A stretch of 64,000 nt of DNA from an uncultured virus (IMG/VR IMGVR_UViG_3300042477_000802) (IMGVR_UViG_3300042477_000802:1-64000), one strand, 5' to 3'. Shown: positions 1 to 62,972, counted from the stretch's first letter. Program-made: numbers and translations. Notes: generated by a model from the letters alone, not told the origin.

Positions 1-666
1 ATGGGAGATATGCAAAATATCTCCTATTATCTATATCGGATCATCAATCAAGTAAATAATAAAATTTATATTGGTCAAACAAAAAATCCGAAACAAAGGT
101 GGCGCCGGCATAAAATTGATGCCCGTCACCTTTCTCCATTAATGTTAATTTCTAAAGCTATTAAGAAATATGGGGTAGAAAATTTTACTTTTGAAGTAAT
201 TGCTACCACAACTAGTTTAAATTTAGCCAATGAGTCAGAAATTGAATTAATTGCTCAATATCAATCGCAAGCACCATTTGGATATAATGCGACTATTGGT
301 GGTAATAATAAACCAGTGTGTTCTGCATGGAATAAGGGAACTAAAGGTATCATTAAACCTAATAGTGGAAGTTTTAAGCCGGGGCAACCCTCTTGGTTAA
401 AAGGAAAAATAGGAATTACCCATGGATTTAAAAAAGGACATCAGATTAATGTCGGTAGAAAATTTCCTAATAGGAAAATTCCGGTAGGAGAAAAAACCAG
501 TCAAGCTAAACTTAAGGGAGAGCAAGTGTTAAAAATAGTGGAATTATATAGAAAAAATTATAGTCAACAACAATTAGCTCAATTATTTAATGTGAGTCGA
601 GCTGCCATTAAAAAAATTATTACTGGAAAAACTTGGAGTCATATTACGAATATTAATTTACCATAA
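1..666 (+). CDS. GIY-YIG homing endonuclease with C-terminal HTH
   Basis: YLYRI..N..NNKIYIGQT..RW..H N-terminal motif, GYN motif, WNKG/FKKG NUMOD-like repeats, C-terminal SQQQLAQLFNVSR HTH. Confidence 0.85.
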   Translation: MGDMQNISYYLYRIINQVNNKIYIGQTKNPKQRWRRHKIDARHLSPLMLISKAIKKYGVENFTFEVIATTTSLNLANESEIELIAQYQSQAPFGYNATIGGNNKPVCSAWNKGTKGIIKPNSGSFKPGQPSWLKGKIGITHGFKKGHQINVGRKFPNRKIPVGEKTSQAKLKGEQVLKIVELYRKNYSQQQLAQLFNVSRAAIKKIITGKTWSHITNINLP

Positions 667-1113
667 AGCTTTTAATTTAACTACTCTCCAATAATCTTCT
701 TCTGTATATGGTGTACCGTGAAGATACCATTCTTTATACCCATTACTATATTCTATGGCCGGACCATCTTCTCGATGTCGTTGGCCTGATATATACCAAG
801 CTTTATAGCCATCATCCCAGATGATGGCTGGACCACCTTCTCGATGTTTTTTACCATGAATCCACCATTCTTGACGGCCACTAATAAAGTCTATTGCTGG
901 ACCATCTGCTCGATGTAATTTATCATAAATCCACCACTCTTGATCACCATTATTACATTCTATAGCTGGTTTATCTTCTCGATGACATTGTCCATGAAAA
1001 TACCAAAATTTGTCTCCATTAAAATATTCTATCGCTGGACCATCTTCTCGATGCAATTCATCATTCCAATAGTATCTTTTAGTCCCAAGTTCATCTATTA
1101 TAATTTCTTGCAT
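658..1113 (-). CDS. HREDGPA-repeat family protein (cluster A)
   Basis: 5 repeat units, MQEI head, YWRVVKLKALW tail. Confidence 0.9.
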   Translation of the reverse strand: MQEIIIDELGTKRYYWNDELHREDGPAIEYFNGDKFWYFHGQCHREDKPAIECNNGDQEWWIYDKLHRADGPAIDFISGRQEWWIHGKKHREGGPAIIWDDGYKAWYISGQRHREDGPAIEYSNGYKEWYLHGTPYTEEDYWRVVKLKALW

Positions 1114-1116
1114 ACT

Positions 1117-1437
1117 TTACCATAAAACTTTGAGCTTTACTACTCTCCAATAATTTTCTTCAGAATACTGAATATGTCTAATCCACCATTCTTTATGACC
1201 ATTAGCATATTCTACTGCTGGACCATCTTCTCGATGACGTTGACCATGAAACCACCAAGATTTATATCCAGAAATAAATTCTACCGCTGGACCATCTTCT
1301 CGATGATATCGGTCATTAAAATACCATTCTTTATCTCCATTAGCACATTCTACTGCGGGTCCATCTTCTCGATGTAATTCACCATTCCAATAGTATTCTT
1401 TATTGCCGAATTTATCTATCTTAATTTTTTGCATAAA
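1117..1437 (-). CDS. HREDGPA-repeat family protein (cluster A)
   Basis: 3 repeats; start at MQKIKID (alternative start 1446). Confidence 0.9.
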   Translation of the reverse strand, partial: FMQKIKIDKFGNKEYYWNGELHREDGPAVECANGDKEWYFNDRYHREDGPAVEFISGYKSWWFHGQRHREDGPAVEYANGHKEWWIRHIQYSEENYWRVVKLKVLW

Positions 1438-1439
1438 TT

Positions 1440-1826
1440 TTACCATAAAGCTTTCAATTTAACCACTCGCCAATATTCTTGCTCTGAATATTGTTTACCT
1501 TGAAGGTACCATTCTTTCATTTTATTAGAATATTCTAGAGCAGGGCCATCTTCTCGATGGCGTTTTCCATGAATCCAATATTCTTTACTACCATCAGCAT
1601 ATTCTATCGCCGGACCGTCTTCTCGATGACGTTGACTATGAAGATACCAATGTTTTCCATCAAGGGAACTATCTATCGCTGGGCCGTCTTCTCTATGCCA
1701 TCGCCCATGACAATACCAATATTTATCCCCATTAATATACTCTATTGCCGGACCGTCTTCTCGATGTATGATACCATTCCAATAATATCTTTTATTACCA
1801 AATTCATCTATTTTAATTTCTTGCAT
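1440..1826 (-). CDS. HREDGPA-repeat family protein (cluster A)
   Basis: 4 repeats, conserved head and tail. Confidence 0.9.
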   Translation of the reverse strand: MQEIKIDEFGNKRYYWNGIIHREDGPAIEYINGDKYWYCHGRWHREDGPAIDSSLDGKHWYLHSQRHREDGPAIEYADGSKEYWIHGKRHREDGPALEYSNKMKEWYLQGKQYSEQEYWRVVKLKALW

Positions 1827-1829
1827 ACT

Positions 1830-2216
1830 TTACCACAAAGCTTGTAATTTAACCACTCTCCAATAGTCTTCTTCTGAATATGGCGTACCGTGAAGGTACC
1901 AAGATTTATCTCCATTAGCATATTCGATAGCCGGGCCATCTTCTCGATGGAAAAGACCATGAAGACACCATATTTTACTTCCATCAGCATATTCTCTGGC
2001 CGGGCCATCTTCTCGGTGGTACTTTCCATAAAAATACCACTCTTTAGATCCATTATTATATTCTAGGGCTGGACCATCTTTTCGATGGAGTTGATTATGA
2101 AAATACCACTCTTTAGTTCCATTAGGCCATTCTATGGCTGGACCATCTTCTCGATGCAGCTAACCATTCCAATAATATCTTTTAGTTCCATCTTTATCTA
2201 TCTTAATTTCTTGCAT
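1830..2216 (-). pseudogene. HREDGPA-repeat gene with one in-frame TAG
   Basis: 387-nt frame MQEIKIDKDGTKRYYWNG*LHREDG...WRVVKLQALW; TAG at 2160-2162 where paralogs usually have Gln; absent from the ORF track. Confidence 0.85.
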
Positions 2217-2219
2217 ACT

Positions 2220-2534
2220 TCACCATAAAGCTTTTAATTTAACTAGCCGCCAATATTCTTCTTCTGTATATTGTTTACCTTGAAGGTACCACTCTTTATC
2301 TCCATTAGACCATTCTATGGCTGGTCCATCTTCTCGATGTCGTTGACCATGAAGATACCAATATTTAGTTCCATTAGCATATTCTACGGCTGGTCTATCT
2401 TCTCGATGACGAGAGCCATGAAGATACCAATGTTCATCGCCATTAAAAAATTTTATCGCAGGGCCATCTTCTCGATGGAGACGATCACTCCAATAATAAT
2501 ATTTTCCCCAGTGATCTTCTTTAATTTCTTGCAT
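2220..2534 (-). CDS. HREDGPA-repeat family protein (cluster A)
   Basis: 3 repeats, conserved termini. Confidence 0.9.
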   Translation of the reverse strand: MQEIKEDHWGKYYYWSDRLHREDGPAIKFFNGDEHWYLHGSRHREDRPAVEYANGTKYWYLHGQRHREDGPAIEWSNGDKEWYLQGKQYTEEEYWRLVKLKALW

Positions 2535-2538
2535 AACT

Positions 2539-2856
2539 TCACCATAAAGTTTTTAATTTAACCACTCGCCAATAGTCTTCTTCTGAATATTGTTTATCAT
2601 TAATAAACCAAGCTTTAAAACCGCTAGAATATTCGGCTGCTGGCCCATCTTCTCGATGTCGTTGACCATGAAGATACCAAGCTTTACTGCCATCAGACCA
2701 TTCTATGGCGGGGCCTCCTTCTCGATGACGTTGATCGTTAAAATACCATTCTTGAGAACCATCTGCAAACTCGATGGCTGGACCATCTTCTCGATGGAGA
2801 TGGTCATCCTCGAAATAGAGAATCTTATTGCTAAATCGTATTATTTCTTTTGCCAT
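2539..2856 (-). CDS. HREDGPA-repeat family protein (cluster A)
   Basis: 3 repeats, KLKTLW tail. Confidence 0.9.
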   Translation of the reverse strand: MAKEIIRFSNKILYFEDDHLHREDGPAIEFADGSQEWYFNDQRHREGGPAIEWSDGSKAWYLHGQRHREDGPAAEYSSGFKAWFINDKQYSEEDYWRVVKLKTLW

Positions 2857-4547: not shown

Positions 4548-4910
4548 TCACCATAAAGCTTGTAATTTTAGCGATCTATCAAATTCTTCTTGAGAAGAAG
4601 AAGTGACAAATTTGCCTTTAAACCACCATTCTTTCCGGCCAGAAACATGTTCTATGGCTGGTCCGTCTTCTCGATGAAGAAGATCATGACAATACCACTC
4701 TTGATTACCATTATCATAGATAATGGCTGGCCCATCCATACGATGGAGTTGACCGTAATTAAACCACATTTGAGAGCCATTAGCTCGCTCAATAGCTGGA
4801 CCATTTTCTCGATGAAGAGTACTATTGAATAGCCAATATTTATCTCCTTCGTTATCCATCAGCAAGAAATAAGATTTATTATCTTCTATAATAGTTTTCG
4901 TCTGATACAT
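4548..4910 (-). CDS. HREDGPA-repeat family protein (cluster B)
   Basis: 3 repeats, KLQALW tail. Confidence 0.88.
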   Translation of the reverse strand: MYQTKTIIEDNKSYFLLMDNEGDKYWLFNSTLHRENGPAIERANGSQMWFNYGQLHRMDGPAIIYDNGNQEWYCHDLLHREDGPAIEHVSGRKEWWFKGKFVTSSSQEEFDRSLKLQALW

Positions 4911-4913
4911 AAT

Positions 4914-5447
4914 TTACCAAAATAATTTTAATTTTAAATAGCGCTGAAAATCTAATTGACAAGAGACTGGTATTTTAACGTCGCAGTAAAACCATCTTTT
5001 ACTTCCATCAAAAGATTCTACTGCTGGACCATCTTCTCGATGAAGTTTTCCATGACGATACCATTCTTTATATCCATCAGCCAGTTCTACTGCTGGACCA
5101 TCTTCTCGATGAAGTTTTCCATGACGATACCATTCTTTACTTCCATCAAAAGATTCTACTGCTGGACCACCTTCTCGATGTCTTTTGCCATGAATCCACC
5201 ATTGTTTATCTCCATTAGAATATTCTATGGCTGGACCATCTTCTCGATGTAATTGCCCCTTAACCCACCATTCTTTAGCTCCACTAATACGATCTATGGC
5301 TGGACCATCTTCTCGATGTCGTTGACCATGAATCCACCATTCTTTACTACCATTAGCATATTCTAGGGCTGGACCATCTTCTCGATGTAGATCACCTTTC
5401 AAAAAATATTTTTTGGTCCCCAATTTGTCGATTTTAATTTTTTGCAT
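4914..5447 (-). CDS. HREDGPA-repeat family protein (cluster B)
   Basis: 6 repeats including near-identical internal duplications; KLKLFW tail. Confidence 0.9.
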   Translation of the reverse strand: MQKIKIDKLGTKKYFLKGDLHREDGPALEYANGSKEWWIHGQRHREDGPAIDRISGAKEWWVKGQLHREDGPAIEYSNGDKQWWIHGKRHREGGPAVESFDGSKEWYRHGKLHREDGPAVELADGYKEWYRHGKLHREDGPAVESFDGSKRWFYCDVKIPVSCQLDFQRYLKLKLFW

Positions 5448-5450
5448 ACT

Positions 5451-5831
5451 TTACCATAAAGCTTGTAACTTTACTACTCTCCAATAATCTTCTTCTGAAT
5501 ATTTTTGACCGTTAAGATACCATTCTTTAGTTCCAGCAGATCCTTTAATTGAATTAACACCATATTCTATCGCATCGTGAAGATACCACTCTTTACCTCC
5601 ATTAAGATATTCTATTGCTGGACCATCTGTTCGATGTAATTTACCATGAAACCACCATTGTTTACAATCATTAGGATGTTCTATGGCAGGACCATCTTCT
5701 CGATGTCGTTGACCATGAAGATACCAATCTTTTCTACCATCTTTATATTCTATAGCAGGACCATCTTCTCTATGTAACTGACCATTATAAGAATAATATA
5801 TATTACCAAATTGATTTACAATTGTTTGCAT
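5451..5831 (-). CDS. HREDGPA-repeat family protein (cluster B)
   Basis: 3 repeats plus a degenerate unit. Confidence 0.88.
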   Translation of the reverse strand: MQTIVNQFGNIYYSYNGQLHREDGPAIEYKDGRKDWYLHGQRHREDGPAIEHPNDCKQWWFHGKLHRTDGPAIEYLNGGKEWYLHDAIEYGVNSIKGSAGTKEWYLNGQKYSEEDYWRVVKLQALW

Positions 5832-5833
5832 AA

Positions 5834-6079
5834 TTACCACAAAGCTTTGAGCTTAACTACTCGCCAATATTCTTTTTCTGAATATTGTTTACCTTGAAGC
5901 CACCACTCTTTAAGCCCACTAAAATGTTGTATAGCTGGACCATCTTCTCGATGACGCTGATCATGAAGATACCAAAATTTACTTCCATCAGTATATTCTA
6001 TGGCAGGACCATCTTCTCGATGTAATTGGCCATTCCAATAATAAGATTTACCCCAGCGGTCTGTTTTAATTTCCTGCAT
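5834..6079 (-). CDS. HREDGPA-repeat family protein (cluster B)
   Basis: 2 repeats, conserved termini. Confidence 0.9.
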   Translation of the reverse strand: MQEIKTDRWGKSYYWNGQLHREDGPAIEYTDGSKFWYLHDQRHREDGPAIQHFSGLKEWWLQGKQYSEKEYWRVVKLKALW

Positions 6080-6083
6080 AACT

Positions 6084-6401
6084 TTACCACAAAGCTTTCA
6101 ATTTAACTAATCTCCAATACTCTTCTTCTGTATATTCTTTGCCTTGAATATAGAATCCTGTGAAGCCACAAGGTGATTCAAATGCTGGGCCATCTATTCG
6201 ATGTCGTTGACCATGATAATACCAAACTTTAATTCCAGTGCTATGCTCCATCGCAGGAGCATTTTCTCGATGCAATTGACCATGCATCCACCACTCTTTA
6301 GAACCATTAGGCCATTCTATAGCTGGACCATCTTCTCGATGTATCTGACTATTCCAATAATATTTTTTAGTCCCATCTCCATCTATTTTAATTTCTTGCA
6401 T
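6084..6401 (-). CDS. HREDGPA-repeat family protein (cluster B)
   Basis: 3 repeats, conserved termini. Confidence 0.9.
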   Translation of the reverse strand: MQEIKIDGDGTKKYYWNSQIHREDGPAIEWPNGSKEWWMHGQLHRENAPAMEHSTGIKVWYYHGQRHRIDGPAFESPCGFTGFYIQGKEYTEEEYWRLVKLKALW

Positions 6402-6402
6402 A

Positions 6403-6723
6403 CTATTGCCATAACGCTTTCAATTTAACCACTCGCCAATAGTCTTCTTCAGAGTATTCTTTATTTTGAAGAAACCACCATTTTACTCCATTGATATAAT
6501 CCATGGCCGGACCATCTTCTCGATGATGTCGACCATGAATAAGCCATTCTTTGGATCCATCAGACCATTCGATAGCTGGGCCATCTTCTCGATGAAGAAT
6601 ACCATTCCAATAATATTCTTTGGTTCCAGAAATAAACTCTACTGCTGGGCCATCTTCTCGATGTTTTTGACCATTATAGTAATAAAATTTATTATCCTCT
6701 TGATCTATTTTCACTTTTTGCAT
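6403..6723 (-). CDS. HREDGPA-repeat family protein (cluster B)
   Basis: 3 repeats; tail KLKALWQ. Confidence 0.9.
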   Translation of the reverse strand: MQKVKIDQEDNKFYYYNGQKHREDGPAVEFISGTKEYYWNGILHREDGPAIEWSDGSKEWLIHGRHHREDGPAMDYINGVKWWFLQNKEYSEEDYWRVVKLKALWQ

Positions 6724-6727
6724 AAAT

Positions 6728-7246
6728 TTACCATAAAGCTTTTAATTTCACCACTCTCCAATATTCTTCTCCTGAATAGATTTTATCTTGAAGATACCAC
6801 AATTTAATTCCATTAGCATATTCTATAGCCGGACCATCTTCTCGATGTAATTTGCCGTGATACCACCACTCTTTAGCTCCACTAGAATATTCAATAGCAG
6901 GGCCATCTTCTCGATGAAGACGTCCATTAAAATACCAGACTTTATTATCCGGGCTTTCTAAGGCTGGACCATCTATTCGATGGAGTTGACCATGAAGCCA
7001 CCATTGTTTATCCCCATTAGCTACTTCTACCGCTGGACCGCCCTCTCGATGGCATTGACTATAGAGATGCCATTCTTTGGATCCACTCTCCCACTCTATA
7101 GCTGGACCGTTTTCTCGATGTCGTTGACCATGAATCCACCATTGCTTATGGCCCTCAGACCATTCTGCCGCTGGACCATCTTCTCGATGGAGTTGACCAT
7201 TCCAATAATAGCATTTACTAAATTCATCTTCTTTAATTTCTTGCAT
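6728..7246 (-). CDS. HREDGPA-repeat family protein (cluster B)
   Basis: 6 repeats, conserved termini. Confidence 0.9.
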   Translation of the reverse strand: MQEIKEDEFSKCYYWNGQLHREDGPAAEWSEGHKQWWIHGQRHRENGPAIEWESGSKEWHLYSQCHREGGPAVEVANGDKQWWLHGQLHRIDGPALESPDNKVWYFNGRLHREDGPAIEYSSGAKEWWYHGKLHREDGPAIEYANGIKLWYLQDKIYSGEEYWRVVKLKALW

Positions 7247-10645: not shown

Positions 10646-10963
10646 TTACCATAAAGCTTTTAGCTTAACTACTCTCAAATATTCTTCTTCTGAATATTCT
10701 TTATTTTGAAGGTACCATCTTTTAGTACCATTAGCTAATTCTACCGCTGGACCATTTTCTCGATGACATCGATCATGAAGATACCAATATTTATCTCCAT
10801 TAGAACATTCTATTGCGGGACCATTCTCTCGATGGCGTTGACCATGAAGCAACCAAAATTTATCTCCATTATAGAATTCTATCGCTGGACCATCTTCTCG
10901 ATGAAGATTTCCATTACAATAATATTTTTTCTTGCCATTGTTATCTGTTTTAATTTCTTGCAT
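10646..10963 (-). CDS. HREDGPA-repeat family protein (cluster C)
   Basis: 3 repeats, conserved termini. Confidence 0.9.
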   Translation of the reverse strand: MQEIKTDNNGKKKYYCNGNLHREDGPAIEFYNGDKFWLLHGQRHRENGPAIECSNGDKYWYLHDRCHRENGPAVELANGTKRWYLQNKEYSEEEYLRVVKLKALW

Positions 10964-10966
10964 ATT

Positions 10967-11284
10967 TCACCACAAAGCTTTCAACTTAACTAATCGCCAA
11001 TATTCTTCTTCTGTATATTTTTTACCTTGAAGGAACCACGCTTTATAGCCATCAACATGATCTGCTGCTGGGCCATCTTCTCGATGACATTTGCCATGAA
11101 ACCACCATTCTTTACTACCATTACCATATTCTACTGCCGGGCCATCGTCTCGATGAAGACGACCATGACGATACCAATATTTATTTCCATTAGCATATTC
11201 TACGGCTGGACCAGCTTCTCGATGGAGTTGACCATTATAAGAATAAAATTTATTACCATATTTATCTGTTGTAATTTTTTCCAT
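10967..11284 (-). CDS. HREDGPA-repeat family protein (cluster C)
   Basis: 3 repeats, conserved tail. Confidence 0.9.
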   Translation of the reverse strand: MEKITTDKYGNKFYSYNGQLHREAGPAVEYANGNKYWYRHGRLHRDDGPAVEYGNGSKEWWFHGKCHREDGPAADHVDGYKAWFLQGKKYTEEEYWRLVKLKALW

Positions 11285-11325
11285 ACTTCACCATAAAAAT
11301 TTAAGCTTTACTGTTCGCCAATCTA

Positions 11326-12297
11326 TCAACCGGGCCAAGGATACGAAAGAATAACTTCTAATTTAGCCAGCATATCACTATTCAAATCTTTTGGCAATTC
11401 AGCATAATAAATGCCCGGCCAACAACCCGTCGTTTTCTCTAAAAGATTTGCCATATGACGTAAAGAATCAATAGTTCTTTTTCTCAATTCATCATGTCCT
11501 AAAGTTTGAACTAAATTCCTAAATTTATCTTCCTTATTTGCATGAGCTAATTTTTGTGATTTACACAATTGTAGCCAAAAAACTAATTCTTTATCATTAG
11601 AAAGCTCTGCTTTCTCTATCAGAAAATTTAATTGATTAAATCCAGACTCTTCTTTAGAGACATATGGAGTCTCCGAACTTTCCTTTACCTCTTGAAAGTG
11701 ATCAAGTAATTTTGATATGTCTTGTGACGAGCGTCCTCGTCTAGCATATTCTTCTCTAATTTTTAGATAAAAATTTTGATAAGTAGATATTTTAGATCGA
11801 TAAGGAGCGGTTAAATTAATCATCATATACATGGTACCAGTATCTACTAGAGATAGATCTAAGTCTGAGAAAAGAGAATTAATAGCTGAAAAATTCTTTT
11901 GCTCCAACAATTTGGAGATAAAAAAATATGCTTGGTCAGCGCCTCCTTCTTTTAAATTAAGACATTGATAATATAAATTATTTAAAAATTCTTTTGACAT
12001 GTTATTACCTAATTTGCCATATTCTTCTTCTGTATATTCTTTACCATGAAGAAAAAATTTACCTTCATGATCTATAGCCGGACCATTTGTTCGATGTAAT
12101 TTTCCATGAAAATACCACCATTCTTTATGGCCACTGGCTAACTCTATTGCTGGCCCATCCACTCGATGATATTTACCATGAAAAAACCACTCTTTATCTC
12201 CATTAACAAATTCTATCGCAGGGCCATCTTCTCGATGTAACTTATCATTCCAATAATAATATTTATTTCCACCTTGATCTATCTTAATTTCTTGCAT
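11326..12297 (-). CDS. chimeric protein: HREDGPA repeats fused to an unrelated helical domain
   Basis: Repeats up to YTEEEY, then ~225 aa of unrelated sequence; displaced tail WRTVKLKFLW* at 11288-11320. Confidence 0.8.
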   Translation of the reverse strand: MQEIKIDQGGNKYYYWNDKLHREDGPAIEFVNGDKEWFFHGKYHRVDGPAIELASGHKEWWYFHGKLHRTNGPAIDHEGKFFLHGKEYTEEEYGKLGNNMSKEFLNNLYYQCLNLKEGGADQAYFFISKLLEQKNFSAINSLFSDLDLSLVDTGTMYMMINLTAPYRSKISTYQNFYLKIREEYARRGRSSQDISKLLDHFQEVKESSETPYVSKEESGFNQLNFLIEKAELSNDKELVFWLQLCKSQKLAHANKEDKFRNLVQTLGHDELRKRTIDSLRHMANLLEKTTGCWPGIYYAELPKDLNSDMLAKLEVILSYPWPG

Positions 12298-12300
12298 ATT

Positions 12301-12684
12301 TCACCACAAAGCTTGTAATTTAACTACTCGCCAAAACTCTTCTTTAGAATATTGTTTACCTTGAAGATACCACCTTTTAGTGCCATTAGCTAATTCTACA
12401 GCTGAGCCATCTTCTCGATGATAAATACCATTAATAAGCCATATTTTAGTTCCACCAATATTATCTACGGCTGGACCGTCTTCTCGATGACGTTGGTCAT
12501 GAATCCACCACTCTGTATCTCCATTAATTCGCTCTATGGCTGGACCATCTGTTCGATGTAGTTGACCATGAAGATACCAAGATTTATCTCCATTAGCCCA
12601 TTCTACTGCAGGCCCGTCTTCTCGATGATAAACTCCATCGACCATCCAAAAAATATCTCCCTCATCATTTGTATACTTTACCAT
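12301..12684 (-). CDS. HREDGPA-repeat family protein (cluster C)
   Basis: 4 repeats; MVK start overlaps the previous stop. Confidence 0.88.
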   Translation of the reverse strand: MVKYTNDEGDIFWMVDGVYHREDGPAVEWANGDKSWYLHGQLHRTDGPAIERINGDTEWWIHDQRHREDGPAVDNIGGTKIWLINGIYHREDGSAVELANGTKRWYLQGKQYSKEEFWRVVKLQALW

Positions 12685-13064
12685 AAAGCTTTTAACTTAA
12701 CTACTCGCCAATAGTCTTCTTCTGAATATTTCTTTTCTTGCAACCAATATTCTTTAATTCCATCAGCATATTCTATGGCCGGGCCATCTTCTCGATGGAT
12801 TTCACCATGAAGAAACCAATATTTCGTTCCATTAGCGCGCTCTACTGCCGGTCCATCTTCCCGATGGAGTTTACCGTAAACCCACCATTCTTTAATAGAA
12901 TTATAAGTAAATTTTACTGCGGGACCATCTGTTCGATGCAGTTTGCCATGAAGATACCATTCTGTACTTCCGTCATTATTCTCTATAGCTGGACCATCTT
13001 CTCGATGTAATCGACCATTAAAGAAATAATGTTTACCATATTTATTTGTTTTTATTTCTTGCAT
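12678..13064 (-). CDS. HREDGPA-repeat family protein (cluster C)
   Basis: 4 repeats. Confidence 0.9.
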   Translation of the reverse strand: MQEIKTNKYGKHYFFNGRLHREDGPAIENNDGSTEWYLHGKLHRTDGPAVKFTYNSIKEWWVYGKLHREDGPAVERANGTKYWFLHGEIHREDGPAIEYADGIKEYWLQEKKYSEEDYWRVVKLKALW

Positions 13065-13067
13065 ACT

Positions 13068-13382
13068 TTACCATAAAGCTTTTAATTTAACTATTCTCCA
13101 ATAGTCTTTTTCGGTATATTCTTTACCTTGAAGAAACCAATATTTGTTTCCAACAACCCATTCTATGGCAGGACCATCTTCTCGATGTAATTGACCGTGA
13201 AGATACCATTCTTTATTTCCATTAACCCATTCTAATGCTGGACCATTTGTTCGATGTAGTTTACCATGTAAACGCCATTCTTTATATCCACTAGGTTCTT
13301 CTAACGCCGGCCCATCTTCTCGATGTAAGTTCCCATTATAACAATAATATTTACCCCATTTATTTTCTTTAATTTCTTGCAT
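13068..13382 (-). CDS. HREDGPA-repeat family protein (cluster C)
   Basis: 3 repeats. Confidence 0.9.
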   Translation of the reverse strand: MQEIKENKWGKYYCYNGNLHREDGPALEEPSGYKEWRLHGKLHRTNGPALEWVNGNKEWYLHGQLHREDGPAIEWVVGNKYWFLQGKEYTEKDYWRIVKLKALW

Positions 13383-13386
13383 AACT

Positions 13387-13737
13387 TTACCATAAAGTTT
13401 TCAACTTAACTAGTCTCCAATATTTTTTTTCTGAAGAAATTTTATTATCTTGTATAAACCATGATTTTCCGCCATCAGGCCATTCAATAGCGGGGCCATC
13501 TGATCGATGAAGTTGACCATAAAGATACCAACATTTAACTCCATTAGCGTATACTACTGCAGGTCCATCTTCTCGATGAAGATGGCCATGAAGACACCAA
13601 TGTTTTTCTCCACTGCTAAATTCTCTCGCCGGACCATCTTCTCGATGAACAAGATTATTCGCATAATATTCTTTAATTAGAATACCATTATAAAGGCTCC
13701 ACCTATATATTCTGATCCATTTATTGTTCATGGTCAA
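13387..13737 (-). CDS. HREDGPA-repeat family protein (cluster C)
   Basis: 3 repeats, KLKTLW tail. Confidence 0.88.
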   Translation of the reverse strand: MTMNNKWIRIYRWSLYNGILIKEYYANNLVHREDGPAREFSSGEKHWCLHGHLHREDGPAVVYANGVKCWYLYGQLHRSDGPAIEWPDGGKSWFIQDNKISSEKKYWRLVKLKTLW

Positions 13738-53587: not shown

Positions 53588-53977
53588 TTACCATAAAGCT
53601 TTCAACTTAACTAAACGCCGATATTCTTCTTCTGATTCTATTTCTTCATTTTGAAGAAACCAGTTTTTCTCTCCATAGAAATACTCTATAGCTGGACCAT
53701 CTTCTCGATGGCGTTGACCATGACGCCACCATTCTTTACTGCTATCAGACCATTCTACAGCTGGGCCGTCTTCTCGATGTAATTTATTATTATAATACCA
53801 TTTTTTACTACTACCAATCCATACTACGGCTGGACCATCTTCTCGATGGCGTTGATCATGACGCCACCATTCTTTAGATCCATCACTATATTCTACCGCT
53901 GGACCATCTTCTCGATGTAATTGACTATTATAATGGTAGCTTTTAGTTCCTTCTTTATCTATTTTAATTTCTTGCAT
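53588..53977 (-). CDS. HREDGPA-repeat family protein (cluster H)
   Basis: 4 repeats. Confidence 0.9.
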   Translation of the reverse strand: MQEIKIDKEGTKSYHYNSQLHREDGPAVEYSDGSKEWWRHDQRHREDGPAVVWIGSSKKWYYNNKLHREDGPAVEWSDSSKEWWRHGQRHREDGPAIEYFYGEKNWFLQNEEIESEEEYRRLVKLKALW

Positions 53978-53981
53978 ATCT

Positions 53982-54299
53982 TTACCATAAAGCTTTTAAT
54001 TTAACTAAACGCCAATATTCTTCTTCTATATATCCTATACCTTGAAGGTACCATCTTTTAGATCCATTAGCTTTTTCTACTGCTGGACCATCTTCTCGAT
54101 GACATTTACCATAAAGATACCACCATTTATCTCCATTAGGATCTTCTATAGCTGGTCCAGCTTCTCGATGTAGTTGGCCATGAAGATACCATTTTTTACT
54201 TCCATCAGCCCATTCTATGGCTGGACCATCGTCTCGATGCAATTTACCATTCCAATAATAAAATTTATTTCCAAATTCGTCTTCTTTAATTTCTTGCAT
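53982..54299 (-). CDS. HREDGPA-repeat family protein (cluster H)
   Basis: 3 repeats. Confidence 0.9.
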   Translation of the reverse strand: MQEIKEDEFGNKFYYWNGKLHRDDGPAIEWADGSKKWYLHGQLHREAGPAIEDPNGDKWWYLYGKCHREDGPAVEKANGSKRWYLQGIGYIEEEYWRLVKLKALW

Positions 54300-54302
54300 A
54301 TT

Positions 54303-54749
54303 TTACCATAAAGATTTTAATTTAACCATCCGCCAATATTCTGCTTCGGAATATTTTTTATTTTGAATCCAAAATTCTTTATCTCCATTATGATGTTGAA
54401 CAGCTGGCCCATCTTCTCGATGGCGAAGACCAAAATAATACCAGGCGGTATAATTGCGTTTCTTATCAATAAGAGCTGGACCATTTGATCTATGCAATTG
54501 TCCTTGAAACCACCATTGTTTTTCTCCACTAGCATATTCTATGGCCGGCCCATCTTCTCGATGAATCTCTCCATAGCGAAACCAAGCTTTATCACCATTC
54601 AAATATAGGATAGCGGGACCATCTTCTCGATGAATTAGATTATCATAATAGTAACAAAATTTACCAAAAATAGGATCTTTAATTATTTCAATGTGTCGGT
54701 CGAGACGTAAATAAATATCGCCCAATTTATTATTTTTATATTTTACCAT
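54303..54749 (-). CDS. HREDGPA-repeat family protein (cluster H)
   Basis: 4 repeats; MVK start. Confidence 0.88.
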   Translation of the reverse strand: MVKYKNNKLGDIYLRLDRHIEIIKDPIFGKFCYYYDNLIHREDGPAILYLNGDKAWFRYGEIHREDGPAIEYASGEKQWWFQGQLHRSNGPALIDKKRNYTAWYYFGLRHREDGPAVQHHNGDKEFWIQNKKYSEAEYWRMVKLKSLW

Positions 54750-55129
54750 AAAGCTTTTAGCTTAACTAAACGCCAATATTCTTTTTCTGTATATTTTTTA
54801 CTATAAATCCAATATTCTTTATTTCCAGTACAATACTCTATGGCTGGACCATCCGCTCGATGTAATTGTTGATAACAATACCAATATTTGGTTCCATCAG
54901 CAAATTCTATGGCCGGACCATCAACTCGATGGAGTTGACCATGATGGTACCAATATTTGGTACCTTCAATATATTCTGCTGCTGGACCATCTTCTCGATG
55001 TAAGATATCTTGAATCCACCATTCTTTAGAGCCGTCATCCCATTCTACTGCCGGACCATCTTCTCGATGCAACTTACCATTCCAATAATATCTTATAGTG
55101 CCAAATTCACTTATCTTAATTTCTCGCAT
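54743..55129 (-). CDS. HREDGPA-repeat family protein (cluster H)
   Basis: 4 repeats. Confidence 0.9.
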   Translation of the reverse strand: MREIKISEFGTIRYYWNGKLHREDGPAVEWDDGSKEWWIQDILHREDGPAAEYIEGTKYWYHHGQLHRVDGPAIEFADGTKYWYCYQQLHRADGPAIEYCTGNKEYWIYSKKYTEKEYWRLVKLKALW

Positions 55130-55132
55130 AAT

Positions 55133-55621
55133 TTACCATAAAGCTTGCAATTTTAACCATCTTTTAAATTGCTTAGTAGATTTAACGGGAATAAATTTCC
55201 CATGATAATACCATTGTTTGGCACCTTTAACTGGATGCACAGCCGGACCATCTTCTCGATGGCATTTGCCATGAAGCCACCATTCTTTAGTTCCAGAAAT
55301 AAATTCTGCTGCTGGACCATCTTCTCGATGTTTTTGACCATGAAACCACCAAAACTTATTTCCATTAGCAGCCTCAACAGCTGGACCATCTTCTCGATGT
55401 CTTTTACCATAACAATACCAATATTTAGATCCGCAAGCAAATTCTACTGCAGGACCATTTTCTCGATGTAATTTACCATAAAGATACCATTCTTTATTTC
55501 CATTAGGATATTCTACTGCTGGCCCTTTTACTCGATGTAATTTGTTATTTCTATAATGTTTTATAACTCCGTCTTTACTTTTTTTTCTTTTATAGATTGG
55601 TTTATTTTTTGTGGTGGTCAT
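55133..55621 (-). CDS. HREDGPA-repeat family protein (cluster H)
   Basis: 5 repeats. Confidence 0.9.
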   Translation of the reverse strand: MTTTKNKPIYKRKKSKDGVIKHYRNNKLHRVKGPAVEYPNGNKEWYLYGKLHRENGPAVEFACGSKYWYCYGKRHREDGPAVEAANGNKFWWFHGQKHREDGPAAEFISGTKEWWLHGKCHREDGPAVHPVKGAKQWYYHGKFIPVKSTKQFKRWLKLQALW

Positions 55622-55628
55622 TTTAATT

Positions 55629-56048
55629 TTACCAAAAGTTTTTTAACTTAATTAATCTCCAATATTCTTCTTCTGAAGGAATAAGAACATTATTCAACCA
55701 AAACTCTTTATATCCATCCGAACATTCTACAGCCGGACCATTTTCTCGATGCCGCATATCATGGAGATACCATTCGTAAATCTTAATTGTTCCATCAATA
55801 GTACTCTCTATGGCCGGGCCATTCTCTCGATGTAAAGCCCCATGGTAATACCACTCAATATCTCCATTTACATGAAATACTGCGGGACCATTTTCTCGAT
55901 GTCTCTTACCATTAAGATACCAAGCTTGATGCCCATTATCACCTTCTATTGAAGGCCATTCTACTGCCGGTCCATCTTCTCGGTGTAATTCATTATTCTT
56001 AGTATATTTAATATATCCGATAGGGTCTTGTATAATTTTAATTGACAT
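55629..56048 (-). CDS. HREDGPA-repeat family protein (cluster H)
   Basis: 4 repeats; KLKNFW tail. Confidence 0.88.
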   Translation of the reverse strand: MSIKIIQDPIGYIKYTKNNELHREDGPAVEWPSIEGDNGHQAWYLNGKRHRENGPAVFHVNGDIEWYYHGALHRENGPAIESTIDGTIKIYEWYLHDMRHRENGPAVECSDGYKEFWLNNVLIPSEEEYWRLIKLKNFW

Positions 56049-60691: not shown

Positions 60692-61294
60692 TCACCACAA
60701 AGTTTTTAACTTAAGTAATTTCAAGTATTCTTTTTCAGAATTTATTCTTTTACCATTTAAAAACCATTTTTTAGTTCCATTAGACAATTCCATGGCTGGG
60801 CCATCTTCTCGATGAAGAGAGCCGTGAATATACCATGATTTATCTCCATCAGTATCTATGATAGCGGGACCATCTGTTCGATGAAGCTTACCATCAAGAT
60901 ACCATTCTTGATCTCCATTTTCGCATTCTTTGGCTGGGCCATCTTCTCGATGGCGCTTTCCATTAATCCACCACTCTTTATCTTCATAGGCTTCTACGGC
61001 TGGACCATCTAGTCGATGGTGTTGACCATGAAGATACCATTCTTGAGTCCGGTAGCTGATGAGTGCAGGACCATCTTCTCGATGAAATTTGCCATTTAAC
61101 ATAAATGTTATGAGTCCTTCAGGACCAAATTTTAATTTCGATCCTTTACCTAGAGGAATAGTTAGCTCTTCCTTTTCAAGGTCTATAACTATATTTTTAG
61201 TTAGAGGCTTATCTTTGGAAAAAAGGACCTTCATAATGTCATTTTTATTTAATAAAATTTGTGCATTATTCTGGTTGATTCGTTTTTTTATCAT
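60692..61294 (-). CDS. HREDGPA-repeat family protein with N-terminal extension (cluster I)
   Basis: 5 repeats; KLKTLW tail. Confidence 0.88.
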   Translation of the reverse strand: MIKKRINQNNAQILLNKNDIMKVLFSKDKPLTKNIVIDLEKEELTIPLGKGSKLKFGPEGLITFMLNGKFHREDGPALISYRTQEWYLHGQHHRLDGPAVEAYEDKEWWINGKRHREDGPAKECENGDQEWYLDGKLHRTDGPAIIDTDGDKSWYIHGSLHREDGPAMELSNGTKKWFLNGKRINSEKEYLKLLKLKTLW

Positions 61295-61606
61295 AAAGTT
61301 TTTGGCTTAACTAATTTCCAATACTCTTCTTCGGAATACTCTTTACCTTGAAGGAACCATTTTTTTAGTTCCATTAGCTTTTTCTACTGCTGGCCCATCT
61401 TCTCGATGAAGTTTATCATCGATAAACCATCCTTTACTTCCATCAGCCCATTCTAATGCCGGCCCATCTTCTCGATGTAATTTACCATGAAGATACCACT
61501 CTTTACCTCCATCAGCCCATTCTATTGCCGGACCATCTTCTCGATGTAACTTATTATTCCAATAATAATATTTAGAGCCAAATTTATCTTTTTTAATTTT
61601 TTTCAT
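61291..61606 (-). pseudogene. HREDGPA gene frameshifted in an A7 tract
   Basis: Extra A at ~61360-61366; tail continues in another frame as WFLQGKEYSEEEYWKLVKPKTL*. Confidence 0.8.
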
Positions 61607-61609
61607 ATT

Positions 61610-61924
61610 TCACCACAAAGCTTTCAGTTTGACTACTCGCCAATATTCTTCTTCTGAATATTCTTTACCTTGAAGAAACCACTCTTTATCTCCATTAGCA
61701 TATTCTGCTGCTGGACCATCTTCTCGATGTAATTTGTCATGAAGAAACCAAAATTTAGTTCCATTAGCATATTCTACGGCTGGTCCATCTTTTCGATGTC
61801 GTTGGCCATGAAACCACCATTCTTTATGACCACGAGTACTTGCTACCGCTGGACCATCTTCTCGATGTAAGAGACCATTCCAATAATATTTAGAGCCATA
61901 TTCATCTATCTTAATTTCTTGCAT
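61610..61924 (-). CDS. HREDGPA-repeat family protein (cluster I)
   Basis: 3 repeats. Confidence 0.9.
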   Translation of the reverse strand: MQEIKIDEYGSKYYWNGLLHREDGPAVASTRGHKEWWFHGQRHRKDGPAVEYANGTKFWFLHDKLHREDGPAAEYANGDKEWFLQGKEYSEEEYWRVVKLKALW

Positions 61925-61997
61925 ACTTTACCATAAAGCTTTCAATTTAACCATTCGCCAATTTTACCATAAAGATTTTAGTTTAACTAGTGGTAGT

Positions 61998-62483
61998 TCA
62001 TTTAATGGTAGAGATTCCGTTAAAAAACGCACTCATCAACTTACAAGATTGACAGACAAAAGTTTTATTACTTTGATCCGGATGAGCATACTCATAATAT
62101 TGACCACATGGTCCACGACAAGTAGCTCCCTCCTCCAACTCATACGAGGTATCTACCGTATATGGAAATCTAATCTTCTTAATTCTAAATGCTTTATGAA
62201 TATCCTTTTCATAGACATGAAAAGAACGATGATGATTAATCATCCAATGATATTTAACATAATGATTGAATTTAGTTAATGCACTTTGATATTGTTTATT
62301 ATCAAGCAGCTCATTAATTTCTTCCGCCACTTGTAATTCTTTAGCAATTTGAAAATCAAAATGATTGTTAATCACATCTACCATATCAGCACAAGCAGAT
62401 TGTAAAGCTTCTTCCTTACTATTATAGATAGTAATATTTACTTCTTGCTCCATATGGTGAGCATATTCAACAATCCAGGGCAT
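61998..62483 (-). CDS. hypothetical protein with C-terminal Zn finger
   Basis: CRGPC...CQSC. Confidence 0.65.
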   Translation of the reverse strand: MPWIVEYAHHMEQEVNITIYNSKEEALQSACADMVDVINNHFDFQIAKELQVAEEINELLDNKQYQSALTKFNHYVKYHWMINHHRSFHVYEKDIHKAFRIKKIRFPYTVDTSYELEEGATCRGPCGQYYEYAHPDQSNKTFVCQSCKLMSAFFNGISTIK

Positions 62484-62495
62484 CTGTTCTCCTAA

Positions 62496-62972
62496 TTAAT
62501 ATTTGATAGTTTGACCATTCGGAGTTACTCTACCATAAGTAGAACCATTAGAATAAATATATTTATCTTCATGGCATTCATAATCCCTATGATCTTCAAA
62601 GTTTTCTGGCTTGATATATTTACATAAATCGTAACAAACTGTATCTCCGCATGTTTTACGGATATGATTTAAATGGTCAATTACATCTTGCTTACTTTGA
62701 TATTTTTTATCGACATTAGCCTGGTAGATGTCAGGGCCATCTTCTCGATATAGTTGACCATTAACATAATATTTTTTAGTCTCCCCTTTAACGGAGCTAT
62801 TTGTTTGCTCATTAATTTTTACTGAAAAAGGCTCTGGTAGTGGAGGATTCAAGTTTAATTGATATTTATCAATCAAATTATTGACCGCAGTTAATGCAGC
62901 GGCGGCCTCATGTTTATTATCGCTCTTAGCGAGCGATAATAATTTTTCTACTTTTTCAATTTTAGATTTCAT
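62496..62972 (-). CDS. DUF2786-like N-terminus fused to one degenerate HREDGP unit
   Basis: KVEKLLSLA.S.N.HEA..A......LI.KY; YYVNGQLYREDGP. Confidence 0.65.
   Translation of the reverse strand: MKSKIEKVEKLLSLAKSDNKHEAAAALTAVNNLIDKYQLNLNPPLPEPFSVKINEQTNSSVKGETKKYYVNGQLYREDGPDIYQANVDKKYQSKQDVIDHLNHIRKTCGDTVCYDLCKYIKPENFEDHRDYECHEDKYIYSNGSTYGRVTPNGQTIKY

What the first reader, a model, noticed from the sequence alone, without database searches (positions are those of the whole stretch)
658..62972. About 48-member HREDGPA-repeat gene library with fixed head and tail and variable repeat number
Seen: 9 tandem clusters covering roughly a quarter of the window. Each gene has 2-7 units of ~23 aa, variable positions between fixed HR.DGPA, G and W residues, and a near-invariant C-terminal Y(S/T)EEEYWR.VKLK(A/T)LW*. 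Inference: a diversified binder (beta-repeat, MORN-like) plus a constant docking tail. The logic resembles ankyrin/F-box adaptor families of large eukaryotic viruses, e.g. an anti-defence or host-takeover adaptor library recruiting one common partner.
Basis: partly seen in the sequence, partly recalled or inferred. Interest (0 to 1): 0.8.

Follow-up and report, generated by a model that had tools for sequence, protein, structure and literature searches.

The report
Giant phage's MORN-like repeat-protein gene library
A very large lake-water phage spends over a quarter of this DNA on dozens of small sister genes for beta-hairpin repeat proteins with a fixed frame, a few fast-changing surface positions and a conserved end helix; they are probably a set of protein binders used inside the host, with targets unknown.

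Summary
There are 48 family intervals in 9 minus-strand arrays, covering 28% of the window: 42 intact genes with the KLKxLW end, 3 without it, and 3 remnants or pseudogenes. The whole 122-kb phage record holds 74 family ORFs.

**Fold.** The unit is a 23-residue repeat, G-x-K-x-W-Y-x-H/N-G-x-L-H-R-E-D-G-P-A-I/V-E-x-x-N/D. AlphaFold (pLDDT 93.8) gives beta hairpins plus a C-terminal helix. The best structural matches are MORN1, MORN4 and junctophilin.

**Selection.**
- Frame residues: omega about 0.1.
- Tail: dS 0.78, omega 0.13, so it is conserved as protein.
- Five positions per unit: dN exceeds dS (1.5, bootstrap 1.1-2.0).

**Tail.** It is first of all the cap of the fold. A related helix closes distant homologues and closes the inner modules of long multi-module relatives in the same genome. 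The last four tail codons are also frozen at the DNA level, next to a TGG-TAA-AGT-ATG stop-start junction. No common partner was found.

**Elsewhere.** At least seven other phage lineages carry such arrays, each with its own conserved head and tail (tail omega 0.07-0.19).

**Reading.** A repertoire of intracellular binders, function inferred. No paper on these phage arrays was found, but this scan noted similar arrays in other phages before. This is the largest of those listed.

The parts
658..2856 (-). Array 1, 6 genes: 658-1113 (151 aa), 1117-1446 (109), 1440-1826 (128), 1830-2216 (128, one in-frame TAG), 2220-2534 (104), 2539-2856 (105)
   Evidence: The TAG copy is shown.
4548..7246 (-). 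Array 2, 7 genes: 4548-4910 (120, variant tail SSSQEEFDRSLKLQALW), 4914-5447 (177, variant tail), 5451-5840 (129), 5834-6079 (81), 6084-6401 (105), 6403-6723 (106), 6728-7246 (172; first gene of the array, with GAGG before its ATG)
10646..13737 (-). Array 3, 7 genes: 10646-10963 (105), 10967-11284 (105), 11326-12297 (323 aa: 3 units, then EEEYGK, then a 220-aa helical part with no family match and no tail), 12301-12684 (127), 12678-13064 (128), 13068-13382 (104), 13387-13737 (116). An untranslated tail stub DWRTVKLKFLW* lies at 11288-11317.
16339..17245 (-). Array 4: 16339-16794 (151), 16798-17112 (104), 17117-17245 (42-aa remnant holding only the last half-unit and the tail)
18310..20830 (-). 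Array 5, 7 items: 18310-18765 (151), 18769-19020 (83), 19014-19256 (80), 19258-19851 (197, 7 units, the longest small member), 19856-20242 (128), 20246-20629 (127), 20633-20830 (5'-truncated remnant beside the IS607-like element at 20970-22803)
43796..45725 (-). Array 6, 6 genes: 43796-44044 (82), 44049-44435 (128; the member folded), 44439-44687 (82), 44691-45008 (105), 45012-45398 (128), 45402-45725 (107)
46668..47937 (-). Array 7: 46668-46979 (103), 46973-47434 (153), 47449-47937 (162, decayed tail ...RLVKLQFI). It is separated from array 6 by an M50-type peptidase gene at 45976-46674.
53588..56048 (-). Array 8, 6 genes: 53588-53977 (129), 53982-54299 (105), 54303-54749 (148), 54743-55129 (128), 55133-55621 (162, variant tail KSTKQFKRWLKLQALW), 55629-56048 (139)
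60692..61990 (-). Array 9: 60692-61294 (200, long N-terminal leader), 61343-61606 (87 aa, frameshifted, with its tail readable in another frame), 61610-61924 (104). Two tail stubs with no gene body (LVKLKSLW* and NWRMVKLKALW*) lie at 61928-61990.
62496..62972 (-). Edge of the finding: a 158-aa DUF2786 protein with one degenerate unit (KKYYVNGQLYREDGPDIY) and no tail. It is not a regular member.

Best explanation
The window is part of a huge uncultured lake-water phage. The 122-kb record is rated 28% complete. The phage carries a multigene family of small, probably cytoplasmic proteins; the typical head MQEIKID is not hydrophobic.

**Build.** Each protein has three parts:
- an N-terminal cap strand;
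- 1-7 copies of a 23-residue beta-hairpin unit that stack into a MORN-like single-layer beta sheet;
- a C-terminal cap made of a half-unit and an amphipathic helix (YSEEEYWRxVKLKALW).

**Selection.** Frame residues and the tail are held by strong purifying selection. Five positions per unit (unit positions 1, 3, 6, 20 and 21; four of them flank the N-G turn) change faster than silent sites. The paralogues therefore differ mainly in one recurring patch and in length.

**Inferred function.** The family is a germline repertoire of protein binders with different specificities, made inside the infected cell to bind host or competitor proteins, for host takeover or counter-defence.

**Expression (inferred).** Genes inside an array are joined as ...TGG TAA AGT ATG... 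with no Shine-Dalgarno sequence. The first genes of two arrays do have GAGG. So arrays are probably read as operons by stop-start coupling.

**Tail.** It is primarily the structural cap of the fold. Its last ~8 residues are specific to this phage lineage and may in addition bind a partner, but that is not shown.

**Shown versus inferred.**
- Shown here: the gene inventory, the selection pattern and the recurrence in other phages.
- Predicted, not measured: the fold.
- Inferred: binding, targets, timing and translational coupling.
For: **Inventory and unit.**

**Fold.**
- AlphaFold2 with 13 paralogues gives pLDDT 93.8 and pTM 0.83, with hairpins plus a helix at residues 115-127.
- Foldseek on the PDB: 9 matches at E<=0.001. 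All nine are MORN1, MORN4/Myo3a, junctophilin-2 or an axoneme chain.
- VIA-align across the whole PDB set puts MORN4/Myo3a first, at Z 7.4.
- BFVD (predicted viral structures): uncultured phage proteins, then a Harvfovirus 'MORN repeat-containing protein' at E 7e-15, TM 0.88 and 39% identity.

**Selection.**
- Conserved body columns have omega 0.03; the tail has omega 0.13 at dS 0.78.
- Hypervariable unit positions were defined on 234 units from the other 61 genes. In the 13-gene test set they give dN 0.94 against a global dS of 0.63, a ratio of 1.49 (bootstrap 1.14-1.96). Frame positions give 0.11.
- The third positions of the G, P and A codons are saturated, while the residues are held in 279-283 of 285 units.

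**Age and maintenance.**
- The nearest paralogue has median 64% identity (maximum 74%), usually with the same unit number and in another array. Only 4 of 66 nearest paralogues lie within two family genes.
- 42 of 48 items in the window are intact.

**Tail as cap.**
- Distant homologues end in ...G-x-x-(S/T)-E-E-(F/W)... followed by a helix-like stretch.
- The inner modules of the 286- to 761-aa relatives end Y-T-E-A-E-W-K-K-K-V-A-A-M-K-K-K and are followed by a linker.

**Junction.**

**Generality.**
- More than 7,800 homologous proteins.
- At least 694 stretches in viral contigs.
- Atlas neighbour clusters are 94-100% viral.
- Seven other phage lineages have arrays with their own conserved tail, omega 0.07-0.19.
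Against: - No binding partner, target or expression evidence exists. No RNA run was listed.
- The structure is a prediction, and I could not read its coordinates. The placing of the variable positions on one patch is inferred from hairpin geometry, not measured.
- dN/dS was computed with a pairwise Nei-Gojobori count on old, partly saturated paralogues, without a tree or a recombination model. The local dS at the variable codons is low (0.29), and AT bias may distort the counts.
- A ratio above 1 can also arise from relaxed constraint plus noise.
- The VIA Z of 7.4 is in the range that the tool calls a 'common arrangement'.
- The Pfam MORN model does not match.
- The host is unknown.
Confidence: 0.6

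Rival explanations
1. Adaptor library. The variable sheet binds different targets, and the constant tail docks all members onto one common partner, such as a protease, a chaperone or a phage machine. The logic is that of ankyrin/F-box or ankyrin/PRANC families.
For: - The tail is conserved as protein: omega 0.13 at dS 0.78.
- K-6, L-5, L-2 and W-1 are invariant in 48 of 48 tails.
- The RxxKLKxxW end is kept across two tail subtypes in this genome and in a more distant 45%-GC phage contig, L011.
- In other lineages the conserved tail reaches 15-25 residues beyond the cap helix and differs from lineage to lineage, as a partner-matched module would.
- The small-gene tail is more hydrophobic than the inner-module helix (read from the sequences; inference).
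Against: - No partner was identified.
- No neighbour family is shared by three or more array-bearing lineages at E<1e-8.
- A related helix occurs inside multi-module proteins, where it is not a free end.
- The four last codons are frozen at silent sites next to the following start codon, so part of the invariance may be an RNA-level constraint.
- Tail stubs persist without a gene body in front of downstream genes.
Confidence: 0.25
2. Antitoxin or immunity-like library. The members are relatives of YwqK-type (MORN-variant) immunity proteins, and each neutralises a different host toxin or abortive-infection effector.
For: - One source names a long homologue 'antitoxin component YwqK of YwqJK toxin-antitoxin module'.
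- Precomputed PF07661 (MORN_2) hits appear on two homologues.
- Many diverged paralogues with a variable patch suit one-to-one neutralisation.
Against: - PF07661 did not match any of the 5 members scanned at E<=1.
- No NCBIfam match reached its cut-off, and there was no PADLOC match.
- The YwqK name is an automatic label on one protein.
- No toxin genes lie beside the arrays.
Confidence: 0.12
3. Virion cargo. The fixed head or tail is a packaging signal, and the proteins are loaded into the capsid and injected with the DNA, like T4 internal proteins.
For:
- Long relatives share a C-terminal helical domain that is always C-terminal on proteins of 150-3,283 aa, which could be an assembly or anchoring module.
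Against: - The head's eighth residue is not a conserved Glu, and the head has omega about 0.9.
- No structural or protease genes lie near the arrays in the 122 kb.
- The T4-type late motif TATAAATA occurs 3 times in the window and precedes no array closely.
- There are no proteomic data.
Confidence: 0.08
4. Selfish or neutral DNA expansion. The repeats spread by duplication, and the conservation reflects recent copying or DNA-level constraint, not protein function.
For: - Some silent sites are frozen. The core reads CAT CGA GAA GAT, with CGA in 180 of 187 cores against a background share of 0.23. Tail Leu-21 is CTT in 39 of 42 against 0.10, and head Ile-6 is ATA in 19 of 20 against 0.16.
- Several remnants and pseudogenes exist.
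- Mobile elements sit between arrays.
Against: - Paralogues are old: nearest identity is at most 74%, and dS is 0.6-0.8.
- 42 of 48 items are intact.
- Omega is 0.03-0.13 at the frame and the tail.
- The same architecture is kept in seven other lineages.
Confidence: 0.03

Closest known systems
MORN-repeat proteins with solved structures (MORN1 of Trypanosoma, Toxoplasma and Plasmodium: 6t68, 6t69, 6t4d; MORN4/Myo3a: 6jle; junctophilin-2: 7rxe, 9uo9)
   Same: A 23-residue period. The predicted fold is a single-layer antiparallel sheet of hairpins with an end helix. These are the best Foldseek and VIA matches.
   Different: - The Pfam MORN model does not match.
- The register of the conserved Gly and aromatic residues differs, and the core is H-R-E-D-G-P-A.
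- Sequence identity is 12-21%.
- These are eukaryotic single-copy scaffold proteins, not viral arrays.
MORN and other repeat-protein multigene families of amoebal giant viruses
   Same: - Large tandem paralogue families of a repeat protein in a very large viral genome.
- The repeat type is shared. BFVD models from Harvfovirus, Hyperionvirus, Powai lake megavirus, Megavirus courdo11, mimivirus R871 and Marseillevirus LCMAC101 match at 28-46% identity.
   Different: - The host is a bacterium.
- The members are much smaller (80-200 aa).
- There is no F-box.
- The tail is a short helix.
- 74 copies in 122 kb is a far higher density.
Pfam DUF6745 (PF20530)
   Same: It is the only curated model that hits. 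Bits are 27.2-60.3 for several members, against a cut-off of 27. Many homologues carry the precomputed label.
   Different: The matches cover only profile positions 63-107 of 206, which is one or two repeat units. The rest of the DUF6745 domain is absent.
Poxvirus ankyrin/PRANC and giant-virus ankyrin/F-box adaptor families (recalled, not searched)
   Same: The logic is the same: a variable repeat array plus a constant C-terminal element, in many paralogues.
   Different: - The repeat fold is different.
- No F-box-like domain was found.
- Bacteria have no SCF ligase.
- The partner of the tail is unknown.
Lineage-specific expansion of about 35 zinc-ribbon genes in Bacillus phage G (PMC7824862, passage read)
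   Same: A single small-protein family expanded to dozens of copies in one jumbo phage.
   Different: A different fold. That review copies 'unprecedented'; here there are 74 in 122 kb. MORN is not mentioned in that review (0 occurrences).

Membership tests
MORN repeat (Pfam PF02493) | Repeat period of about 23 residues | tested here: met
   The unit is 23 aa in register in 285 units, and gene lengths step by 23 aa.
MORN repeat (Pfam PF02493) | Sequence match to the MORN profile (YxGxWxxGxxHGxG) | tested here: not met
   hmmscan of 5 members at E<=1 lists no MORN model. The same holds for the long members.
MORN repeat (Pfam PF02493) | Fold: single-layer antiparallel beta sheet of stacked hairpins | tested here: met
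   This rests on a predicted model only (pLDDT 93.8). The top Foldseek matches are MORN1, MORN4 and junctophilin at E 6.5e-5 to 1e-3, and VIA gives MORN4 Z 7.4.
DUF6745 (PF20530) | Match over the whole 206-position domain, above the gathering score | tested here: not met
   Scores of 13.5-60.3 bits cover profile positions 63-107 only.
YwqK / MORN_2 (PF07661) immunity proteins | Match to PF07661 | tested here: not met
   None of the 5 members scanned matched at E<=1. PF07661 appears only as a precomputed label on 2 distant homologues.
YwqK / MORN_2 (PF07661) immunity proteins | Encoded next to a cognate toxin gene | tested here: not met
   No toxin family was found among the 30 + 30 + 71 neighbouring proteins scanned.
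Repeat-plus-F-box/PRANC viral adaptors | C-terminal F-box-like domain | tested here: not met
   No F-box or PRANC hit. The tail is a 15-residue helix.
Repeat-plus-F-box/PRANC viral adaptors | The constant element binds one common cellular partner | not testable with these tools
   No partner is known. A search for neighbour genes shared between array-bearing lineages found none.
T4-type internal proteins with capsid targeting sequence | N-terminal leader ending in a conserved (L/I)-x-E cleavage site (motif recalled from memory) | tested here: not met
   Head residue 8 varies (E, K, Q, G, N, H...). Head omega is about 0.9.

The most novel reading that the evidence does not exclude
Huge phages, and with the same repeat type some giant viruses, keep a cassette-built, germline-encoded binder repertoire.

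Each hypervariable 19-residue cassette is flanked by a DNA core that is frozen even at silent sites. Here the core is CAT CGA GAA GAT. Other lineages each have their own fixed Arg codon: CGT, AGA or CGG.

The core would serve as microhomology for adding, deleting and exchanging whole units between paralogues. The lineage-specific tail would couple every binder to one lineage-specific effector or assembly. That would be a viral counterpart of cassette-assembled receptor libraries.

My tests for unit exchange were inconclusive, not negative.
Probability: 0.12. Interest if true: 0.85.

Novelty: new variant of a known kind. Interest (0 to 1): 0.62.

Why it matters
If these are binders, a single phage encodes 74 or more diverged versions of one scaffold. 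That is more than a quarter of the coding DNA in this region. The same design recurs in many large phages, each with its own cap.

This points to a widespread and so far undescribed way in which large phages handle host or rival proteins. It parallels the repeat-protein families of giant eukaryotic viruses.

The scaffold is small and modular, grows in 23-residue steps, and has a few free positions. That also makes it a candidate natural framework for engineered binders.

The family is invisible to PHROGs and NCBIfam and is touched by only one Pfam DUF. One paper reports MORN-repeat proteins 37 times more frequent in long-read than in assembled viral data (PMC9238414, passage read). Such arrays are therefore probably under-counted.

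Tried and rejected
**Complex prediction and sequencing runs**
- Homodimer prediction with two copies of the 128-aa member: no verdict.
- RNA evidence: no RNA holder was listed.
- Contigs of four lake-water DNA runs were laid on the window. Unique genes are identical (pieces up to 5.3 kb with 0 differences). In the arrays, the extra depth, differences and joints look like cross-matches of paralogues, so nothing could be said about population variation.

**Unit shuffling**
- PHI test on 13 paralogues: p=0.75, with little power at this divergence.
- Distance matrices of five gene segments are uncorrelated (Mantel r -0.10 to 0.50; one of ten at p<0.05). This fits either shuffling or a star-like radiation.
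- The best DNA match of consecutive cassettes lies in the same partner gene in 6 of 85 cases, against a random expectation of 1.6.
- Local stretches of 60-120 nt are >=90% identical, with 85-91% identical third positions. They were picked after the fact and are not clearly beyond what about 40,000 unit pairs give by chance.

**Partner and promoter searches**
- Conserved neighbour or partner gene: none shared by three or more lineages.
- Sigma-70-like promoters: 76 found against 84 expected.
- No shared motif upstream of 13 array starts.
- TATAAATA: 3 sites, none useful.

**Family and structure libraries**
- PHROGs: no family at E<=0.001 for the one member scanned; only one match, at E 0.088, for the other member scanned. 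The shared C-terminal domain got only two isolated matches at E>=0.0045.
- NCBIfam: nothing near a cut-off.
- PADLOC: nothing.
- PDB by sequence: nothing below E 0.24.
- Megablast of 10 kb against phage records: no match.
- Reverse transcriptase (diversity-generating retroelement): none among the proteins scanned.
- The shared C-terminal domain of the long relatives folds as long helices (pLDDT 84.8) with no structural match at E<=0.001.

**Literature**
- HREDGPA, LHREDGPA, HRxDGPA, DUF6745, HREDGP: 0 papers.
- 'MORN repeat' plus 'phage genome': 1 paper, not about arrays.
- Jumbo-phage review: MORN is not mentioned.
- YwqK/MORN/phage: nothing on phage arrays among the 12 papers listed.

Full report
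**What the window is.** The window is the first 64 kb of a 121,933-base virus record. The source labels the record 'provirus' and rates it 28% complete.
- It has 35% G+C.
- It is densely packed with minus-strand genes.
- It has no close DNA match among deposited phages.

Its other genes are those of a very large phage's auxiliary region:
- a class II aminoacyl-tRNA synthetase, a Ro60/TROVE protein, an RNA ligase and a SpoU methylase;
- a dCMP deaminase, a Dam methylase, a 5'-3' exonuclease and a UvrD-like helicase;
- seven tRNA genes;
- homing endonucleases, an IS200/605-type element and an IS607-type element.

No structural genes were seen in the 122 kb.

Two other virus records hold the same phage. 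One matches at 99.998% over the whole length; a 20-kb piece of the other is 100% identical. Lake-water metagenome runs hold the stretch: ten runs have at least half of its sampled words, and two of those ten may be the source.

**The observation.** It is confirmed in detail.
- A motif scan and a unit HMM give 45 repeat ORFs in the window, plus one edge case (62496-62972).
- There is also one copy with an in-frame TAG and two remnants.
- That makes 48 intervals in 9 arrays, 28.4% of the window.
- The whole record has 74 family ORFs, 28.9% of its bases.
- A further 36.9-kb contig of the same sample series adds at least 8.

The unit is 23 residues: G-x-K-x-W-Y/W-x-H/N-G-x-L/R-H-R-E-D-G-P-A-I/V-E-x-x-N/D. 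H and R are invariant, and the following G, P and A are held in 279-283 of 285 units.

Gene lengths fall in classes 23 residues apart. 42 of 45 window ORFs end in KL[KQ]x[LF]W.

**What the proteins look like.** AlphaFold2, given an alignment of 13 four-unit paralogues, returns a confident model (pLDDT 93.8). It has short paired strands throughout and a helix at residues 115-127, which is the tail.
- All nine Foldseek matches at E<=0.001 are MORN proteins or an axoneme chain: MORN1, MORN4/Myo3a, junctophilin-2.
- An aligner that does not depend on Foldseek also ranks MORN4/Myo3a first, but at Z 7.4, which the tool warns may only reflect a common arrangement.
- Among predicted viral structures, the best matches are uncultured phage proteins, Agrobacterium phage Atu_ph07 and Celeribacter phage P12053L. 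Giant eukaryotic viruses also match at 28-46% identity: Harvfovirus, Hyperionvirus, Powai lake megavirus, Megavirus, mimivirus R871 and Marseillevirus.
- By sequence, the Pfam MORN model does not match. Only one or two units' worth of DUF6745 does.
- PHROGs, NCBIfam, PADLOC and PDB sequences give nothing of note.

So it works like a MORN sheet but is not a member of the curated MORN family.

**Selection.** In the codon alignment of the 13 paralogues, overall dS is 0.63.

| Region | dN/dS |
|---|---|
| Conserved body columns | 0.03 |
| 15-codon tail (dS 0.78, dN 0.10) | 0.13 |
| Nine-codon head (dS only 0.31) | about 0.9 |

To avoid choosing variable columns on the same data, I defined hypervariable unit positions on the 234 units of the other 61 genes. 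They are positions 1, 3, 6, 20 and 21. I then measured them in the 13-gene set: dN 0.94, or 1.49 times the global dS (bootstrap 1.14-1.96). Intermediate positions give 0.67 and frame positions 0.11.

Four of the five positions flank the N-G turn. In a two-residue hairpin turn, positions 21, 1 and 3 would point to one face. That is inference, because I could not read the model's coordinates.

The method is a pairwise count on old paralogues, so the ratio above 1 is suggestive, not proof.

**Age and dynamics.**
- No two small paralogues exceed 74% protein identity, and the median nearest neighbour is at 64%.
- The nearest neighbour usually has the same number of units and lies in a different array. 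Only 4 of 66 lie within two family genes.
- So this is an old, maintained family, not a recent tandem burst.
- Decay does occur: one TAG-interrupted copy, one frameshifted copy, a copy fused to an unrelated 220-residue part, a truncated copy beside an IS607-like element, and tail stubs without a gene body.

**The tail.** Three observations make it first of all a cap of the fold.
1. Distant homologues from other organisms end with a half-unit followed by (S/T)-E-E-(F/W/Y) and a helix-like stretch.
2. Seven long relatives at 67-88 kb of the same record consist of two to five head-units-helix modules joined by Ser/Thr/Lys linkers. Inside them, the helix (Y-T-E-A-E-W-K-K-K-V-A-A-M-K-K-K) is not a free end.
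3. The model gives the helix pLDDT 80-90.

DNA-level constraints are superimposed on the protein-level ones. The last four codons are AAA GCT TTR TGG:
- AAA in 44 of 44 tails;
- GCT in 34 of 37, against a background share of 0.44;
- the Leu codon is never CTN.

They sit directly before TAA-AGT-ATG of the next gene. Codons further up (R-9, K-6, L-5) vary freely.

Inside arrays there is no Shine-Dalgarno sequence, but the first genes of two arrays have GAGG. I infer stop-start coupled translation. I also infer that the tail's 3' end doubles as the leader of the next gene, which would explain why tail stubs persist in front of genes 10967-11284 and 61610-61924.

What remains for a docking role is the lineage-specific part.

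**Other lineages.** In seven other phage lineages with arrays of 4-19 genes, the units are the same, but each lineage has its own head and its own near-invariant tail of 14-24 residues. Examples are ...GINDPSEDEINDKVQQVTSASILD...EFNKKITELNVSKIHELW and ...GKIVEIDGKRYKLEEV. Tail omega is 0.07-0.19 at dS 0.3-2.0.

These extensions are longer than a cap helix needs, which keeps the adaptor reading alive. No candidate partner emerged: no neighbour gene family is shared by three or more lineages. A homodimer prediction gave no verdict.

**Distribution.**
- The repeat type has more than 7,800 relatives of similar length and 2,768 longer ones. Nearly all are unnamed.
- It matched at least 694 stretches in 2.9 million viral contigs, against 319 in the genomes of 185,579 bacterial and archaeal species.
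- The nearest Atlas clusters are 94-100% viral.

**An unexplained detail.** The core H-R-E-D is written CAT CGA GAA GAT in nearly every unit. CGA is used in 180 of 187 cores, although Arg in the tail uses five codons and the background share of CGA is 0.23. Meanwhile the third positions of the adjacent G, P and A codons are saturated.

Other lineages each fix a different Arg codon: CGT, AGA, or CGG in 13 of 13 units in a 30%-GC contig.

A frozen microhomology flanking each variable cassette would suit unit gain, loss and exchange. Nearest paralogues of different size do differ by gaps of 22-23 residues. But the PHI test, segment-wise distance matrices and a search for mosaic stretches gave no decisive signal.

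**Comparison with what is known.**
- Repeat-protein multigene families, MORN among them, are described for amoebal giant viruses (PMC5753266, passages read).
- A jumbo-phage review calls about 35 zinc-ribbon copies in phage G unprecedented and does not mention MORN (PMC7824862, passages read).
- Searches for the motif, for DUF6745 and for MORN repeats in phage genomes found no description of such phage arrays.
- This scan has noted similar MORN-like arrays of 12-26 genes in other uncultured phages, and a fused multi-module gene with a shared tail domain. I saw these notes after my own analysis. They agree with it, and they mean the kind is not new to the scan.
- This case is the largest among them and adds the selection measurements, the cap-versus-docking argument, the coupled junction and the frozen-codon pattern.

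**Verdict.** This is a real and striking family. The binder idea is supported indirectly. The docking-tail idea is open and partly replaced by a cap-plus-leader explanation.

Noticed in passing
window 1830-2216 (-); tRNA at record 66059-66134 = L001:2059-2134 (-), outside the window: The record encodes a tRNA with anticodon CTA, which reads TAG. One family gene has a single in-frame TAG exactly at the unit position where paralogues most often have Gln (NG*LHREDGPA). TAG also ends 26 of 209 genes, so there is no sign of general recoding in this region.
   Followed up: partly
all units, e.g. window 44049-44435; other lineages L012, L027, L033, L037: The H-R-E-D core is frozen at silent sites: CAT CGA GAA GAT, with CGA in 180 of 187 cores against a background share of 0.23. 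The neighbouring Gly, Pro and Ala third positions are saturated. Each other phage lineage fixes its own Arg codon (CGT, AGA, CGG). The cause is unknown.
   Followed up: partly
record 67233-87677 (L001, L002), outside the window: Seven long relatives (286-761 aa) are chains of two to five head-units-helix modules joined by Ser/Thr/Lys linkers. Each module starts ...STQPV-MEVD... with conserved DNA. Five of the seven end in a shared domain of about 150 aa.
   Followed up: yes
L001:15856-16338 (-) and relatives: That C-terminal domain has 435 cluster representatives at E<=0.001. It always lies at the C-terminus of proteins of 150-3,283 aa, whose N-terminal parts mostly have no Pfam match. It folds as long helices (pLDDT 84.8) with no structural match at E<=0.001, and it is absent from PHROGs.
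   Followed up: yes
window 2887-4035, 20970-22803, 1-666, 13721-15384, 23576-24049: Mobile elements sit between and beside the arrays: an IS200/605-type TnpB-like gene, an IS607-like pair next to a truncated family gene, and GIY-YIG, LAGLIDADG and HNH endonucleases. Outside the window there is a ThyX gene with an intein and HNH.
   Followed up: no
window 45976-46674 (-): A gene for an M50-type (site-2 protease family) peptidase lies wedged between arrays 6 and 7.
   Followed up: no
window 27589-29142, 38769-42164, 51753-52835, 22896-24552: RNA-centred auxiliary genes: Ro60/TROVE with a vWA domain, a SpoU methylase, an aminotransferase-like gene next to a class II (D/K/N-type) aminoacyl-tRNA synthetase, an RNA ligase, and a cluster of six tRNAs.
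   Followed up: no
record 108019-108252 (+), outside the window: A 77-aa protein without repeats lies directly upstream of an array and ends ...SLMIKFIKNFW, a tail-like end. Only 2 of 294 non-family ORFs of 60 aa or more end in Trp.
   Followed up: no
window, whole: The word TATAAATA is depleted: 3 sites against 13.4 expected from shuffles, and all 100 shuffles had at least 3.
   Followed up: no
window 48568-50953: Contigs of all four lake-water runs laid on the window show a joint that skips about 2.38 kb (around gene 49758-50894). Only 21 letters lie on the shorter side. It may be a variant lacking this gene or a cross-match.
   Followed up: no
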